Of a DNA stretch of 64,000 nt, positions 15,001 to 21,000 are shown piece after piece; positions within the stretch are counted from its first letter, which is position 1; every line of letters begins with the position of its first letter. The position numbers were made by a program. The DNA is taken from the NCBI RefSeq assembly GCF_056746865.1, contig NZ_CM163382.1. One strand, given 5' to 3'.

Positions 15001-18000
15001 GACCACTTGATAATTTCCGGCCAGGTCTTCGTTCGTAGCTGGTTGTCGGTGTTGGCGGTCACCACGACCTTACAATCCTCGCAAGTGGACATGCCCCAGT
15101 TGATGAGCATTGAGATGAATGCGGATTTACCAATACCGTGACCAGAAGCACGTGCCAGCATAAGCGGCTGATAACGCGTCTCTGGATTCTGCAGGTGATC
15201 ACGTATCTCTCGGAACGCATCGGCCTGCCACTGACGTGGACCGGTAGCATGTGCCAGTTCAGTCCCCTCTTCCCCCCAAGGGAACGCATAGAGGGCATAG
15301 CCAAGCGGATCGTGAGTGAACCCTGCAATATCTTCGATTAACTGCTCTTCAGGAGATAACGCTGCATCTGTCACTGATTACCATCCTGACGTTCTTTGAG
15401 TCGCTTCCTGGCTGCCGCTATGCGATCAGCAATTGTCACATTCACATTAACATCCAGTCGTTCTTTGAATGCGTTGACGTCGACGTGCTTACCAATCAGT
15501 TCGAGGTTCTTCACCTTGTCAGGCCATTTAATTTTTTTGAGGATTGTCTCTATCGAATCCTCGTTCATGTTCATGATGGTCGATGACAGATCAAAGCCGC
15601 TAAGCGTAGTGCGCCAGATTTTCGGCCACTCGCGGATTGGCTTAAGGCTCCCATCGTCGTTGAGGATATCAATCACGTCCATCTGGTCGATCTCCACCAG
15701 GCGCATGAGAACGTAATCAGCACTGACGCGCATTCGTTTGTTGCGCTCCTCCATCAACTCGGCAATCCGTTTCTGAATGCGTTCATCGCGCATCATGACA
15801 CTGGCTTTAACTGCCGCTGTATTTGGGGAGAATCCTGCATTAATCGCAGCCTGAGTCTGGTTTTCAGGCGTTTTGATGTATGACTGGCAATAAGCCTCCT
15901 GCATTGCTGTTAGTGGCTTAAATTGCGTTGATTTGCGTTTATAGGCTTTAGGTTCAGCAGGCATCATAACCACCGTGGTAATAGTTACCGTTGTGGTAAT
16001 AGTAACATGCAAAATAAAGCCGCCATAGTTGGCGGCAGTATTCAAAGTCCATCAAATTCATCGTAAAAACTCTCGTCAAGATACCCTTCCCATTTACCGC
16101 GAATGAAAATTACATCCTCGCCGCAAGGGTGCTGACTGTCGATAACTATATCCCTCCTGGCGCAACCATACTTATGCATGAGAAATTTAACCTCTTTCGG
16201 AAAATTTGCTGAGTTATCTCTCATATCTTCAAGGTCGTAGCGTATTTTTGGCATAACACCTTCGTGACATGTCACACTATTAATTTCGTTTCATGCCAGC
16301 CTTTAGTCACCCAGCATTGTGAGTCACCATTACACGGACATGAATTAACTGGAACTCTCTCGCCGCACTTACCGCAACGTTTTCTACTGATCGATTTTAT
16401 ACGCCCGCGCACGCGTGCATCATCCTGGCGGATCAGTAACGCTATATACTCACCAAATTCGTAAGGCGCACGCCCGGGGCGACGCGCGGCACAGTTACGC
16501 TCAAGCATTTCAATTTCCTGAGCATCAAGCACAATCTCCAGCTTACGTACACCGGATGCAGCTTGTCTGGCTCTCTGAGCGGCTTTGCGCTCTGCTGCTG
16601 ATTTAGCCATCAATATTCACCTTTATCGCGTAAACCTTTACCGGTTTATCTCCGAAGTGCGGATGTGTGATTGTCTTGATTTCATATCCGTCATACGGGA
16701 CGTCAATTCTACGACTGGAGTCGTCGCGCTTCGGATATCCCTTTGTGATAATCAGTCGGTCATAATCCCTGAACATAATTCGCTTATTCCAGTAGTCATT
16801 ACACAGGCGATACTCTTCCGTTTTCTCTCCGCGAATCATGGCATCGAAGTATTCACCTTTGACGGCAAGTTGCAGGTTAGCCACGGTTAACCTCCTTCGG
16901 CGGTTCTGGTAGAGGCATCCAGTACAAGGCGTTCCCTAACCACGATAAAGTGCCGTCGCTCAACTCCACGTATTCCCCTTGTACCTGTCCTGCCATATAC
17001 TCGCCGTGCTTTGAATAAATTAAAATCCAATCATCTTGAGCGGGCATTCGCTCACTACAGCTTATCCAACTATCCGGAGTTACCGGATAGTTGCCAGCCA
17101 GTCTACGCAAAACAGCCTTAACAGCCTCAATACGGTCATCATCGCAATTTTCCAGCGTATCTATGCGGTCGAGCATGATGATGGCGTTATCAATATCAGG
17201 ATTGCCAGTCCACTCATTATCGCGATTGGATTCGGCAGCCTGGTTGCCAGATGCTGGCTGATTGTCGGCTTGGCTATAGCTAACAGCACGGCAGGCATCC
17301 TCTACGCCTTTAACTGCATCTGCACAGTAGTTATAGCGATTGCATTCCACTAACTTCTGCTTGAGATTTTCAATTGCTTGCGCGACATCAGCCTGTATTG
17401 GCGGAACGGCTGTTTGCTCTCGAACGTCATTAGTCGCTATCGGTTCTGCTGCCAACTGACTGGCATATTTGTTAATGGTAACGATAAGCTCTTGCTCGGC
17501 CTCATCCAGACAATCACCGATACCTCGCCTGTCACCGTCAAAATCATCGAAATCGGCACGAATCCTGGCAACCTCCCGGATTGCGGACAACACTTCACCA
17601 GGAATAAGCGGAGAGTTGCCCGATAGTACATTCTGCTCCAGCGATGCCAGAGCAATTCGTGCCAGTTCTTCCGCTTCTTCTGCTGGCAGTACAACGTTGC
17701 TACCAGGTCCGTATGTTTCGCGCCACTGCTTGATTGTCAGTAGTCGCTCTTTGGTAATAGTGATCATGCCGCGTTTCCTTCTTTCTTATTAACAATTACA
17801 CCGTCATATATTTCATTAAGGTGCCCTCTTAACTCCATGCGCCTTAATGCAGATAACATGTAATCGCATTCAACCTGCTTATTTCCAGTAAATGGCTTAT
17901 CGTCAGGATTACCCCAACAGCAATTACCCTTGGGCCACCCATGTACTTTCCGTACTCTTCCGTTAACAACGTGAAGTAATCCCCAGCCAGGTGGTAAATC

Positions 18001-21000
18001 CTCAATTGAAATAATTCCCGGCTCACTAATAAAGAATCGCCAGTCGCCCATTCCAAGAGACGGATTTTTACGAAAACGCTTTTTTCTATCTGCCAACAAG
18101 TCAGCACGAGAACATTTCGCCTCTATCAGGCATGATGCTGAATTTCTGAATCCCATAGCATCTGGCTGTTCTCCGGTACTGGTTACAGCTATAAAGCGGT
18201 CATGAAAACAAACCTTGAACCCGTTGCGCTTAAGGAACTTGTACGCAATCTGACAGAGTTCGCGGTGTGTTAACGCCATATCACTCTCCTTTAGTGCGCA
18301 AGTGGTTTTTCCAGCGGTTTTGCGCCGCGCTGGGCTTTTTGCAAAAACCACAATCCATCATCCCGTAATGTTTCATTAACCCCATCCGTCGGTTGCTGAG
18401 TCTCACCCACTGCCAGACGCCAGGAGCGTTTCTACGAACTAACAGAATCTTTGCTTTACGGTTTTTCATCGCTTTGCTCTCCTGCGTCTCTTTGCTGCTC
18501 GTCGTGCCGCTGCAATACCGGTATGGCGGCGCTTTGGTGCCGGGATGATGTTGTCAGCCATCAGGACATACGGCTTTGCAATTAGCGCAGAAGCCCAAAA
18601 ACGAGTCGGGTACGGTAACAAGCCAATACATGCCACACGCACTACTCACCTCCGTTGATGCGAATGCCTGTTGCAATGCTGTTTATGATGCTGTCAGTGC
18701 ATGGGGTAGAAAGCTGGGCATCTCCAGCAATTTTCATGACATCAACATCTGCATATCGAATACCGAGGTGTATCAGACCGGCTATACCTGACTTAAGCCG
18801 AGCATTTTCCATAAACAGATCCTTTGCCCGCTGTTTTTCTGCCTCAAGCTCAACGCGCAACTTCCCTACCGTTAGCGCAATATCCTCGTTCTCCTGGTCG
18901 CGTGATTTGATGTATTGCTGGTTCCTTTCCCGTTCATCCAGTAGTGCCAGCACGGTTTCTGGTCCGGCCAGAAATTTGAAGGCGTTGAGCGCATCAATAT
19001 CCACACCGTAATCTTTAAGTTCCTGTTCACTTAACAAATCATCATCAGCTGGCAACATTAACAGGCGTTCCATTGCTGGAATTGCACGTTCCGCCGCCTC
19101 ACGCAGTGCCTGGTAATTAATTTCGCTCACTGGTTGCCTCCTTTGCGAAGCTGGGCAGCAAAGTCAACTAACCACTCAGTCATTTCAACCTTCCCTACCA
19201 GGTCTGAACCAGGGTGCATACAGCAATCACTCTGCGCCGCTTTGAAATCCTTATACTCATATTCTTGGGCCACCAGATTTTTTGCAGCTTCTATAGCAGC
19301 ATCCACCCCCTGCGCCCGGACTTCAGCCAAGAAAGCGTCGGTGGCTGACATATTTCCTGTTGCCTTCATGGCCTTCAAAATAACCAGAACGCCATCTCGC
19401 CCAACCACCTCAGCGATAACCTCGGTGTTGTCGCCAACAACATCGCAGAATGCCTGAACTGCCTTACGAGCCAGCTCATTCTCCACAGCCAGCGCATTAG
19501 CACGCACCAGTTGCACTTCCAGTTGCGTTGCCAAATCGCTGAGCAGCTTTGCCACACTGCGCATATCAACGGCACCACATTCTGCTTTCAGTTCCGAAGC
19601 CATCTCATGCCCGTCGGCAACTAACCCTTTGATATTACTTTCCATCTTTACCCTCGCTTATCCACATAACTTATTGATTACATTGATAACTAAAAAGATC
19701 GTCGATTCAGAACTCTTCGATGTTCCAGCCACCACCTGCTTTCTTTGGTTTAACCGTTACCCCGATGATTCGGAACGGATACTGATCTGCGGCGACTTTG
19801 GTTTTCACCCTGGCGTCGTCGGTCCAGAATCCCCCTTTCACTTCGTGCAGCTCCATCTCGCCGGTGGCGAGCATCACAGCAAAATCGGGCGTATAGAACG
19901 TGTTGTCAGCTAACCGCAGCTTGATACCCTCAAATCGATACCAGACGATTTCTCCTGCACGTTTACGCATCTCAAGGTGCTGGCAATACGCAGATTCTGT
20001 TTTGTTCATCTGGCCTGTTTTGAGTCGACCAAGAGCCTGTATCTGTTTTCTCATGATTTACCTCTGAGGTAATTAAAAACCACATAAGACACGAAATCAA
20101 TAGAGTTTAGAATATTTTGTTACCCAACAGGTAACTATCAAGACATAAAAAAATGCGCTATCGCGCTGGTATTACTTGATAAATCCTGCCGCCTTTCCCC
20201 GCCTGTATTCCTCCATCAGCCACTGCGCCGGTGTTATTCCCCCCAGGGTGGCGGCGTTAGGCATGCACCCGAAACTTCGCCCTGGTGGGTGGTAAACGTC
20301 TCTCCCTGTGTCCGGAGGCGTACTCATGGGTTCTGGCTTTGCCTGTATGCTGATCACCGGATCGGGTATCTGCTGTCCGGAAGCCACCTTTTTCGCCCAA
20401 TCATCGAGCAGCCTGCGCGCGTGTTTCTCAACCTCAATCTCGCTAAGCTGGCGCTGATACATTGCACGGCGGGTATCACATACGACCCAGTACATAACCG
20501 GATGCCGCCACGGGAATCTTTCGGGACCACCAGGATATAAACTTTTTTCCTTGCTGTACCGGTGAAACTCCGCCATCACATCGTCAATGGTGACGCCAAG
20601 AACCATCTTGCTGTCTTTACACCACTTGATGAATTGCCCTGGCGACGGCCAGAACGGAGACTCACTGGCGCGGGCGTGGCGCATACCAGCGTTAACCTGT
20701 TCCATTGTAGTGATCCCATTCTCCAGAAACGCAAGCATCCATTGCTTACGGAATTCATTAAGTTTGTTCTGCTCCCTTATGGTCGAAACGCTTGCAGGAA
20801 ATGCAGCCTGTAACTGGACAAATAGTTCATTGAAAATTCTAGCGACCTGCTCCTTTTTGCCATTGCTGTCACGCCGCTCTTCATGCACAGCAACACCATA
20901 CTCACGTAAGCGATCGTACTCATTGAGAAGTTCTGGAGTTGATTTCATCCCACACCCCTTCTATCCAGTCAGTGTTATTCCAGTCAAGCTCATCGCTTTT

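What the first reader, a model, noticed from the sequence alone, without database searches (positions are those of the whole stretch)
17764..18561. String of translationally coupled small basic ORFs feeding into a PD-(D/E)XK-like nuclease gene
On the minus strand a 31-codon Arg/Ala-rich ORF (18561..18466) overlaps by ATGA a 62-aa basic, Trp-containing ORF (18469..18281), which ends 1 nt before the AGGAG-preceded start of a 171-aa protein carrying a PD...EAK nuclease-like motif. The 18352-18641 interval has no larger ORF. The arrangement could be a small regulatory or toxin-antitoxin-like module or a nuclease with accessory peptides, and is a candidate accessory locus.
Basis: inference. Interest (0 to 1): 0.35.

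Follow-up and report, generated by a model that had tools for sequence, protein, structure and literature searches.

The report
Phage early-operon small genes plus nuclease
This stretch is an ordinary piece of a prophage's tightly packed early operon: two small basic proteins of unknown function followed by an uncharacterised MmcB-like nuclease, which are shuffled between phages independently and do not form a dedicated toxin-antitoxin or regulatory module.

Summary
The "31-codon ORF" is the 3' half of a 58-codon ORF. It starts at GTG 18642, behind a GGAGGTGA Shine-Dalgarno, and overlaps the stop of the upstream Ea22-like gene.

The region lies in the early operon of a phiV10/TL-2011b-like E. 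coli prophage. Nearly every gene junction from about 19.6 kb down to the terminase genes overlaps or abuts, so the coupling is not special to these ORFs.

- **ORF62** is a real gene, and **ORF58** probably is. pN/pS is about 0.35 in their frames and about 1 in the other sense frames. Both ORFs stay open across many diverged variants.
- **Linkage is weak.** ORF171 follows an ORF62-type array in only 25% of ORF62-anchored loci. About half of near-identical ORF171 copies sit behind other genes that end in the same junction, ...GGCATTCGCATCAAAGGAGAGTGAtATG. Diverged homologues in other genera have no small ORFs upstream.

The cassettes are independent pieces of a mosaic. Interest is low, and the genes are new members of known kinds.

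The parts
18642..19130 (-). Ea22-like gene (162 aa) immediately upstream. It ends ...ATGIRINGGE*, and its TAG shares one base with the GTG start of ORF58.
   Evidence: Pfam PF13935 Ead_Ea22, E 7.6e-33. Sequence.
18642..18659 (-). Junction 1: ATCAACGGAGGTGAGTAGTG. It holds the Shine-Dalgarno (GGAGGTGA), the stop of the Ea22-like gene and the GTG start of ORF58. It is a variant of the conserved cassette junction.
   Evidence: Compare the junction found upstream of ORF171 in other phages.
18466..18642 (-). ORF58: a 58-aa protein with a hydrophobic, aromatic N-terminal half and an Arg/Lys/Ala-rich tail (phrog_13831). It is probably a real gene.
   Evidence: It is open in 38/38 variants, has only in-frame indels, and has pN/pS 0.35-0.38. 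ATG or GTG is conserved at the junction. PGAP annotates it. The exact sequence occurs on at least 1000 contigs.
18281..18469 (-). ORF62: a 62-aa basic protein of the 'MKNRKAK' family (phrog_1380). The N-terminus (MKNRKAKxL) and C-terminus (SAAQNRWKNHLRTKGE) are conserved and the core is variable. Its start overlaps the ORF58 stop (ATGA).
   Evidence: pN/pS is 0.23-0.44, against about 1 in the other sense frames. The wobble-matched antisense frame has stops in 23/28 sequences. Variable sites by codon position are 26/24/45.
18291..18410 (-). Alternative-frame 39-aa ORF inside ORF62 (MGETQQPTDG...). It is annotated as a gene (gp09) in Stx phage ST2-8624. This analysis does not support it as coding.
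   Evidence: In the two non-ORF62 sense frames pN/pS is 0.83-0.94, with stops in 28/28 sequences.
18277..18304 (-). Junction 2: CACTTGCGCACTAAAGGAGAGTGATATG. It holds the '+GE' C-terminus of ORF62 (AAA GGA GAG), the Shine-Dalgarno, TGA, one spacer base and the ATG of ORF171. Its last roughly 16 nt are identical to the junction that joins many other upstream genes to ORF171.
17764..18279 (-). ORF171: an MmcB-like PD-(D/E)XK-fold protein and predicted nuclease. It is identical to phage P7 Upf89.0.
18115..18171 (-). Predicted catalytic core of ORF171: E37-Q-P-D40 ... E53-A-K55.
   Evidence: The stretch translates to EQPDAMGFRNSASCLIEAK. D40 is invariant and E37, E53 and K55 are conserved in at least 90% of 93 diverse relatives. 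The stretch aligns to the IECK motif of 3dnx.
16877..17767 (-). Downstream DUF551-domain gene (296 aa). Its ATG overlaps the ORF171 stop (ATGA).
   Evidence: PF04448, E 2.2e-10.

Best explanation
The interval is part of the non-essential accessory segment of the rightward early operon of a phiV10/TL-2011b-like prophage, read here on the minus strand. The order is replication genes, a DUF1064 nuclease-like gene, two Ea22-like genes, ORF58, ORF62, ORF171, DUF551, and so on to the terminase genes.

The genes are separate cassettes, transcribed together and translated by stop/start coupling. Each cassette ends in a purine-rich junction (...AAA GGA GAG TGA n ATG). That junction encodes three things at once:
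- the C-terminal '+GE' of the upstream protein;
- the Shine-Dalgarno for the next gene;
- the stop and the next start.

Because the same junction recurs between unrelated cassettes, it probably also serves as a short homology patch at which cassettes are exchanged between phages. This last step is inferred.

ORF171 is a stand-alone MmcB-like PD-(D/E)XK enzyme. It is most likely a Mg2+-dependent endonuclease that acts on branched or damaged DNA during phage replication and recombination. This is inferred from its fold, its conserved catalytic residues and its nin-region neighbours.

ORF58 and ORF62 are small, very basic early proteins of unknown function. They travel mostly with each other and with Ea22-like genes, not with the nuclease.
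For: **Context**
- The region is 97-98% identical over 75-84% of its length to phages HEMP4, TL-2011b, ZX5 and phiv142-3.
- Stop/start overlaps or abutments occur at every junction from 19645 to 13899.
- There is no promoter-like or terminator-like site on the minus strand inside 17764-18660, and no Rfam hit.

**Nuclease**
- The AlphaFold2 model has pLDDT 87.8.
- A profile of 93 relatives hits 3dnx at E 2.9e-5 across the catalytic motif.
- Of the 93 relatives, 16 weakly hit Pfam Hjc and 10 weakly hit MmcB-like.
- BFVD neighbours are named MmcB-like.
- D40 is invariant, and E37, E53 and K55 are conserved in at least 90%.
- Diverged homologues lie among NinB, NinG and RusA in lambdoid nin regions.

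**Small genes**.

**Cassette independence and shared junction**.

**The +GE motif** of Ea22 proteins was noted in the literature as unexplained (PMC7093339).
Against: - No biochemical or expression data exist for any of the three proteins.
- ORF171 itself matches no Pfam, NCBIfam or PADLOC model, even at E<=10 for Pfam and NCBIfam and E<=1 for PADLOC. The MmcB-like assignment therefore rests on structure prediction and profile searches.
- The role of the junction in recombination is inferred only from its recurrence. Selection for a good ribosome-binding site could conserve it alone.
- The coding signal for ORF58 is shared by an antisense frame that is open in 35/38 variants.
- The linkage percentages come from IMG/VR samples that contain many near-identical E. 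coli prophages. They were capped at 80 and 120 loci, so they are rough.
- ORF62 precedes ORF171 in about half of ORF171 loci. That is more than random and could reflect some functional preference rather than common descent.
Confidence: 0.7

Rival explanations
1. The small ORFs and the nuclease form a dedicated module. In this reading a small basic antitoxin, inhibitor or specificity subunit (ORF62, with or without ORF58) controls a toxic nuclease (ORF171).
For: - The three genes are adjacent and translationally coupled.
- ORF62-type genes lie directly upstream of ORF171 in 40 of 75 ORF171-anchored loci.
- A small upstream gene followed by a nuclease is the layout of many type II toxin-antitoxin systems (established knowledge).
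Against: - 31 of 75 near-identical ORF171 copies lack the small ORFs and sit behind unrelated genes.
- P7 and the Klebsiella, Serratia and Morganella homologues have none.
- Lytic Ackermannviridae and Vibrio phages also carry homologues of ORF171.
- Only 25% of ORF62 arrays are followed by ORF171.
- There is no PADLOC hit.
- A toxin that often occurs without its antitoxin would not be maintained.
Confidence: 0.07
2. ORF58, ORF62 or both are not genes. In this reading they are chance ORFs in a non-coding spacer, or in the decayed remnant of an Ea22-like gene. Their conserved ends would then reflect only DNA- or RNA-level elements: ribosome-binding sites, recombination patches or an RNA structure.
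For: - Only the ends of ORF62 are strongly conserved, and its middle is highly variable.
- Some variants are frameshifted into another frame and still give an ORF.
- One phage annotation uses a different frame.
- ORF58 has an open antisense frame with an equally low pN/pS.
- The AlphaFold2 model of ORF62 is only moderately confident, with pLDDT 65.7.
Against: - The ORF62 frame is open in 28/28 same-length variants and in nearly all of 65 distinct variants. Every other frame has stops in at least 23 of 28.
- pN/pS is 0.23-0.44 only in that frame and its wobble-matched antisense.
- Changes in the MKNRKAK codons are all synonymous.
- The core keeps a shared pattern (SN[RH][RK], G, KP[ST]A) across at least 5 types at 38-58% identity.
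- ORF58 is open in 38/38 variants, while the antisense frame closes in the three most diverged.
- The conserved 3' segment shows no RNA structure signal (z 0.28), and there is no Rfam hit.
Confidence: 0.12
3. ORF171 is a catalytically active anti-host or inter-phage weapon, such as a host-DNA degrading or superinfection-exclusion nuclease, and not a recombination or repair enzyme.
For: - It lies in an accessory, mosaic region that is rich in moron-like genes.
Against: - There is no PADLOC match.
- There is no specificity or sensor domain. The whole 171 aa aligns to the single-domain MmcB-like fold.
- Its neighbours in diverged prophages are recombination genes of the nin region.
Confidence: 0.11

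Closest known systems
MmcB-like DNA repair protein family (Pfam PF06319; structure 3dnx, SPO1766; Caulobacter MmcB)
   Same: - Both are single-domain PD-(D/E)XK folds of about 150-170 aa.
- A profile hit at E 2.9e-5 covers the D...E-x-K-x-S-R-x-D-F-x-x-D motif.
- BFVD neighbours are named MmcB-like.
- MmcB is described as a PD-(D/E)XK endonuclease that protects against mitomycin C (PMC9578287).
   Different: - ORF171 does not reach any Pfam threshold, with no hit at E<=10.
- Only 10 of 93 relatives hit PF06319, and weakly.
- ORF171 is phage-borne in an early operon. It is not a LexA-controlled chromosomal gene.
- It has its own conserved C-terminal motifs (GMGDWRF, GWGLL, KPFxxNKQxE, SALRR).
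Archaeal Holliday-junction resolvase Hjc (PF01870) and the phage nin-region nucleases (RusA, NinG)
   Same: - It shares the PD-(D/E)XK core. 16 of 93 relatives weakly hit the Hjc model, and Hjc structures are among the fold hits.
- It occupies the same genomic niche as RusA and NinG in lambdoid prophages.
   Different: - RusA and NinG are unrelated folds.
- No resolvase activity has been tested.
Exo-xis / Ea22 accessory region of lambdoid and Stx phages (Ea22 and the small ORFs orf60a, orf61, orf63, ea8.5)
   Same: - ORF58 and ORF62 lie directly downstream of an Ea22-like gene here and in Stx phages such as VT2-Sakai, Min27 and ST2-8624.
- ORF62 ends with the same '+GE' tripeptide described for all Ea22 proteins (PMC7093339).
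- They are small early proteins of unknown function in a mosaic region.
   Different: - ORF58 and ORF62 match none of the named exo-xis proteins in Pfam or NCBIfam, and the exo-xis papers read do not discuss them.
- In this prophage the region lies between the replication genes and the terminase, not between exo and xis.
Type II toxin-antitoxin modules with nuclease toxins
   Same: A small gene is translationally coupled to a downstream nuclease-fold gene.
   Different: - Co-occurrence is not obligate.
- There is no own promoter or operator.
- There is no match to toxin-antitoxin or defence models.

Membership tests
PD-(D/E)XK nuclease superfamily | An alpha-beta-beta-beta-alpha-beta core fold shared with restriction-endonuclease-like proteins | tested here: met
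   [not shown]
PD-(D/E)XK nuclease superfamily | The catalytic signature (P)D ... (D/E)-x-K, conserved across the family | tested here: met
   The signature here is P39-D40 ... E53-A-K55. D40 is invariant and E37, P39, E53 and K55 are conserved in at least 90% of 93 relatives at 34-56% identity. The coordinates were verified.
PD-(D/E)XK nuclease superfamily | Metal-dependent phosphodiester cleavage | not testable with these tools
   This needs purified protein and nuclease assays.
MmcB-like family (Pfam PF06319) | A match to the family HMM at the curated gathering threshold | tested here: not met
   ORF171 has no Pfam hit even at E<=10. Only 10 of 93 relatives hit PF06319, with a best E of 2.9e-4.
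MmcB-like family (Pfam PF06319) | Closest structural similarity to the family's solved representative, over the whole domain | tested here: met
   [not shown]
MmcB-like family (Pfam PF06319) | A role in tolerance to DNA cross-link damage, with SOS control | not testable with these tools
   The literature covers only Caulobacter MmcB (PMC9578287). Here the gene sits in a phage early operon.
Type II toxin-antitoxin module | Obligate co-occurrence of the two partners across homologues | tested here: not met
   ORF62-type genes lie upstream of ORF171 in 40/75 loci. ORF171 lies downstream of ORF62 arrays in 26/106. The small ORFs are absent in P7 and in the Klebsiella, Serratia and Morganella homologues.
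Type II toxin-antitoxin module | An autonomous bicistronic operon with its own promoter or operator | tested here: not met
   There is no promoter-like site on the minus strand between 19200 and 17600. The genes are embedded in a long coupled operon.
Protein-coding small genes (ORF62, ORF58) | The reading frame is maintained and under purifying selection across diverged homologues | tested here: met
   ORF62 has pN/pS 0.23-0.44, is open in 28/28 sequences, and every other frame has stops in at least 23 of 28 sequences. ORF58 has pN/pS 0.35-0.38 and is open in 38/38, but its antisense frame is not excluded by this test alone.
Protein-coding small genes (ORF62, ORF58) | Direct evidence of translation | not tested
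   No ribosome-profiling or proteomic data were examined.

The most novel reading that the evidence does not exclude
ORF58 and the 'MKNRKAK' ORF62 family may form a previously unrecognised two-part set of small, very basic early proteins that travels with Ea22-like genes. ORF58 lies upstream of 72% of ORF62 arrays, and there are one or two tandem ORF62 paralogues per phage.

The ORF62 termini are invariant and its core has diversified into at least 5 types. That pattern would fit a protein that binds a conserved partner through its ends and a variable target through its core, for example a nucleic-acid-binding or host-factor-binding modulator of the lysis-lysogeny decision, or an anti-defence function.

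Separately, the unexplained '+GE' C-terminus of Ea22 proteins would simply be the protein-level shadow of a shared Shine-Dalgarno/stop/start junction. That junction may double as a recombination linker for cassette exchange.
Probability: 0.2. Interest if true: 0.45.

Novelty: new member of a known kind. Interest (0 to 1): 0.18.

Why it matters
The finding matters little as it stands. It does tidy up the annotation of a region present in thousands of E. coli, Shigella and Salmonella prophages, Stx phages and P1-like plasmids.

- It gives a fold-level assignment (MmcB-like PD-(D/E)XK nuclease) to a very common hypothetical protein, P7 Upf89.0.
- It settles which frame of a small ORF is coding. 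ORF62 is supported; the 39-aa frame annotated in one Stx phage is not.
- It offers a simple explanation for the '+GE' tail that the literature notes on Ea22 proteins.

If the small basic proteins proved to modulate Stx-prophage development, they would add to the poorly understood set of exo-xis-type accessory genes.

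Tried and rejected
1. Direct Pfam, NCBIfam, PADLOC and PDB-sequence searches with the three proteins gave nothing for ORF171, ORF62 or ORF58. Only PHROGs families of unknown function matched.
2. I considered that phrog_9263 (230 aa, ORF62 plus ORF171) reflects an ancestral fused gene. I rejected this. The fusion seen in an IMG/VR locus (L030) comes from a 1-nt deletion in an A5 run, which shifts ORF62 into the upstream extension of the ORF171 frame. The split arrangement is the common one.
3. I considered an RNA element in the conserved 3' end of ORF62, a CCAGCG...CGCTGG hairpin. 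The fold energy is no better than shuffles (z 0.28), and there is no Rfam hit at E<=1.
4. I considered the alternative-frame 39-aa ORF annotated in ST2-8624. It shows no selection signal.
5. I noticed a resemblance between the Arg-rich tail of ORF58 or the AAQNRW segment of ORF62 and the arginine-rich motif of lambda N. This is from memory only, it could not be tested, and it is not claimed.
6. The afdb50 fold library was unavailable.
7. The AlphaFold2 model of ORF62 (pLDDT 65.7) was too weak to justify a fold search.
8. A literature search for junction or linker sequences and for Pas sRNAs turned up nothing that bears on this locus.
9. The hhalign call compared the family profile with its own first member and added nothing.

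Full report
**1. What is in the sequence**

On the minus strand the ORF list and the sequence show this chain:
- an Ea22-like gene at 19130..18642 (Pfam PF13935, E 7.6e-33);
- a 58-codon ORF at 18642..18466;
- a 62-codon ORF at 18469..18281;
- a 171-codon ORF at 18279..17764;
- a DUF551 gene at 17767..16877.

The junctions are TAGTG (a one-base overlap), ATGA, TGA-t-ATG and ATGA.

The "31-codon ORF" is not a unit of its own. Its ATG (18561) has no Shine-Dalgarno and lies inside the 58-codon ORF. That ORF starts at GTG 18642, directly behind GGAGGTGA. PGAP annotates the 58-aa form in near-identical plasmids. In 29 of 38 related sequences the start position carries ATG.

**2. Context**

The surrounding 24.5 kb is 97-98% identical, over 75-84% of its length, to the E. 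coli podophages HEMP4, TL-2011b, ZX5 and phiv142-3, which are phiV10-like.

The finding lies in the early operon that runs from the replication genes (21768..20172) to the terminase genes (16045..13899). Every junction from 19645 down to the terminase large subunit overlaps or abuts. No promoter-like or terminator-like site lies on the minus strand inside the finding, and no Rfam family matches. The "string of coupled ORFs" is therefore how this operon is built, not a peculiarity of these genes.

**3. The 171-aa protein**

It has no Pfam, NCBIfam, PADLOC or PDB-sequence match of its own. It nevertheless belongs to a large family:
- 2614 cluster representatives at E<=1e-3;
- homologues in lambdoid prophages of many Enterobacterales;
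- an identical copy in phage P7, Upf89.0;
- homologues in Ackermannviridae and Vibrio phages.

All are annotated as hypothetical.

In 93 relatives at 34-56% identity, D40 is invariant and E37, P39, E53 and K55 are conserved in at least 90%. An AlphaFold2 model built on 35 homologues has pLDDT 87.8.

| Test | Result |
|---|---|
| Family profile against PDB sequences | 3dnx at E 2.9e-5, across the catalytic motif |
| Pfam scan of 93 relatives | 16 weakly hit Hjc, 10 weakly hit MmcB-like |
| BFVD neighbours | named "MmcB-like DNA repair protein" |

MmcB of Caulobacter is described as a PD-(D/E)XK endonuclease that protects against mitomycin C (PMC9578287).

ORF171 is a remote, phage-borne relative of the MmcB-like family. 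It is not a member by Pfam's own threshold.

**4. Are the small ORFs genes?**

*ORF62.* A DNA-pattern scan of IMG/VR gave 102 distinct contexts and 65 distinct proteins. Almost all are 58-65 aa. The family has:
- an invariant N-terminus, MKNRKAK;
- a conserved C-terminus, SAAQNRWKNHLRTKGE;
- at least five diverged core types that still share SN(R/H)(R/K), a Gly and KP(S/T)A.

Nucleotide changes in the MKNRKAK codons are all synonymous.

| Frame (28 same-length ORF62 sequences) | pN/pS | Sequences with stops |
|---|---|---|
| ORF62 frame | 0.37 pooled; 0.23-0.44 in the subsets | 0/28 |
| Other two sense frames | 0.83 and 0.94 | 28/28 |
| Wobble-matched antisense frame | 0.45 | 23/28 |

Variable sites by codon position are 26/24/45. 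ORF62 is a real gene. The alternative-frame 39-aa ORF annotated as gp09 in Stx phage ST2-8624 is not supported.

*ORF58.* All 38 variants are open. Every indel is in frame. pN/pS is 0.35-0.38, against 0.85-2.0 in the other sense frames. A wobble-matched antisense frame is also open in 35/38 variants, with pN/pS 0.29. That frame has no start codon until mid-way, and it closes in the three most diverged variants, where the sense ORF stays open. ORF58 is a probable gene.

The AlphaFold2 model of ORF62 is only moderately confident (pLDDT 65.7, helix-three strands-helix). No function can be read from it.

**5. Are the three genes a module?**

They are not.

| Sample | Observation |
|---|---|
| 75 IMG/VR loci with a 99-100% identical ORF171 | 40 have an ORF62-type gene upstream |
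| Same 75 loci | 31 have larger, unrelated genes ending ...AGIRIKGE*, with the same DNA junction GGCATTCGCATCAAAGGAGAGTGAtATG |
| 106 ORF62-type arrays found independently of ORF171 | 76 (72%) are preceded by ORF58 |
| Same 106 arrays | 26 (25%) are followed by ORF171; many other downstream genes occur |

Two tandem ORF62 paralogues, 179 bp apart, are common, for example in phiV10. In P7 the nuclease follows an Ead-like gene. In Klebsiella, Serratia and Morganella prophages the homologue lies in the nin region after genes of 127-185 aa, near NinB, NinG or RusA. None of those loci has small ORFs upstream.

A toxin-antitoxin pair or an obligate accessory-subunit relationship is therefore very unlikely. 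These counts come from capped samples rich in near-identical prophages, so they are rough.

**6. The junction**

ORF62 ends ...AAA GGA GAG TGA t ATG. The same roughly 16-28 nt sequence joins many unrelated upstream genes to ORF171. A variant (AAC GGA GGT GAG TAG TG) joins the Ea22-like gene to ORF58.

The literature notes that all Ea22 proteins end in a basic residue followed by Gly-Glu ("+GE") and calls its significance unknown (PMC7093339). The sequence shows directly that K-G-E is the translation of AAAGGAG-AG, which is the Shine-Dalgarno of the next coupled gene.

That the shared junction also acts as a homology patch for cassette exchange is my inference. From memory, it agrees with older proposals of linker sequences at lambdoid module boundaries. 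I could not retrieve that literature.

**7. Mechanism, as far as it can be stated**

*Shown:*
- The operon is co-directional and tightly coupled.
- The gene set is mosaic with a shared junction.
- ORF171 has a conserved PD-(D/E)XK active site in an MmcB-like fold.
- ORF62 is under purifying selection, and ORF58 probably is.

*Inferred:*
- ORF171 is a metal-dependent, structure- or damage-specific DNA endonuclease that helps phage replication and recombination. This rests on its fold relatives and its nin-region company.
- ORF58 and ORF62 are small, basic early proteins of unknown function, perhaps nucleic-acid-binding or host-modulating. They are linked to each other and to Ea22-like genes, not to the nuclease.

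**8. Verdict**

Nothing here departs from what is usual in lambdoid or phiV10-type accessory regions. All three proteins already sit in databases as hypothetical proteins on at least 1000 contigs each. Interest is low.

The most novel reading that remains is that the ORF58/ORF62 family is a functional early modulator with a hypervariable core. I put that at about 0.2.

Noticed in passing
window 18277-18304 and 18642-18659 (minus strand); L003-L082 just upstream of position ~3000: Ea22 proteins are reported to end in a '+GE' tripeptide of unknown significance. ORF62 and many other cassettes here share that ending. It is encoded by AAAGGAGAG-TGA, which is the Shine-Dalgarno plus stop for the next coupled gene. 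The same 16-28 nt junction recurs between unrelated genes.
   Followed up: partly
L083 3060-3179 (Stx phage ST2-8624 gp09); window 18291-18410 minus strand: One curated Stx-phage annotation calls a 39-aa ORF in a different frame of the ORF62 region and leaves ORF58 unannotated. The selection analysis favours the ORF62 frame, so that annotation is probably wrong.
   Followed up: yes
L094, L102, L104 (phiV10), L114, L119, L122, L140, L154: Two MKNRKAK-type small genes lie in tandem, with starts 179 bp apart. The first ends ...QNRRKKGYAVR* and overlaps the next start by ATGA. This is a small paralogous array with diverged cores.
   Followed up: partly
L030 around 2800-3000; phrog_9263: A 1-nt deletion in an A5 run shifts ORF62 into the upstream extension of the ORF171 frame and gives a fused protein. 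A similar fusion probably explains the 230-aa PHROG that matches both ORFs.
   Followed up: partly
L001 6040-6680 and L002 3471-3649 (P1-like E. coli plasmids): In roughly 95-97 kb P1-like phage-plasmids the ORF58/ORF62 block is intact. The gene after it is annotated as frameshifted or partial, so this accessory region is decaying or being rearranged there.
   Followed up: no
window 19707-20054 minus strand: A 115-aa DUF1064 protein lies three genes upstream of ORF58 (PF06356, E 1.2e-5; phrog_190 'Holliday junction resolvase', E 5e-43). The operon therefore carries a second putative DNA-structure nuclease.
   Followed up: no
window 18545-18658 plus strand: The frame antisense to ORF58 is stop-free in 35 of 38 variants and has a low pN/pS. 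This is probably a by-product of the Ala/Arg-rich (GCN/CGN) sense codons. Its first start codon gives only a 37-aa ORF.
   Followed up: partly
window 22051-22070 minus strand and 22348-22376 minus strand: A strong terminator-like hairpin (8 bp, 6 GC, T-tail) lies shortly downstream of a promoter-like site at the head of the early operon. This is reminiscent of a tR1-type site that would need antitermination.
   Followed up: no
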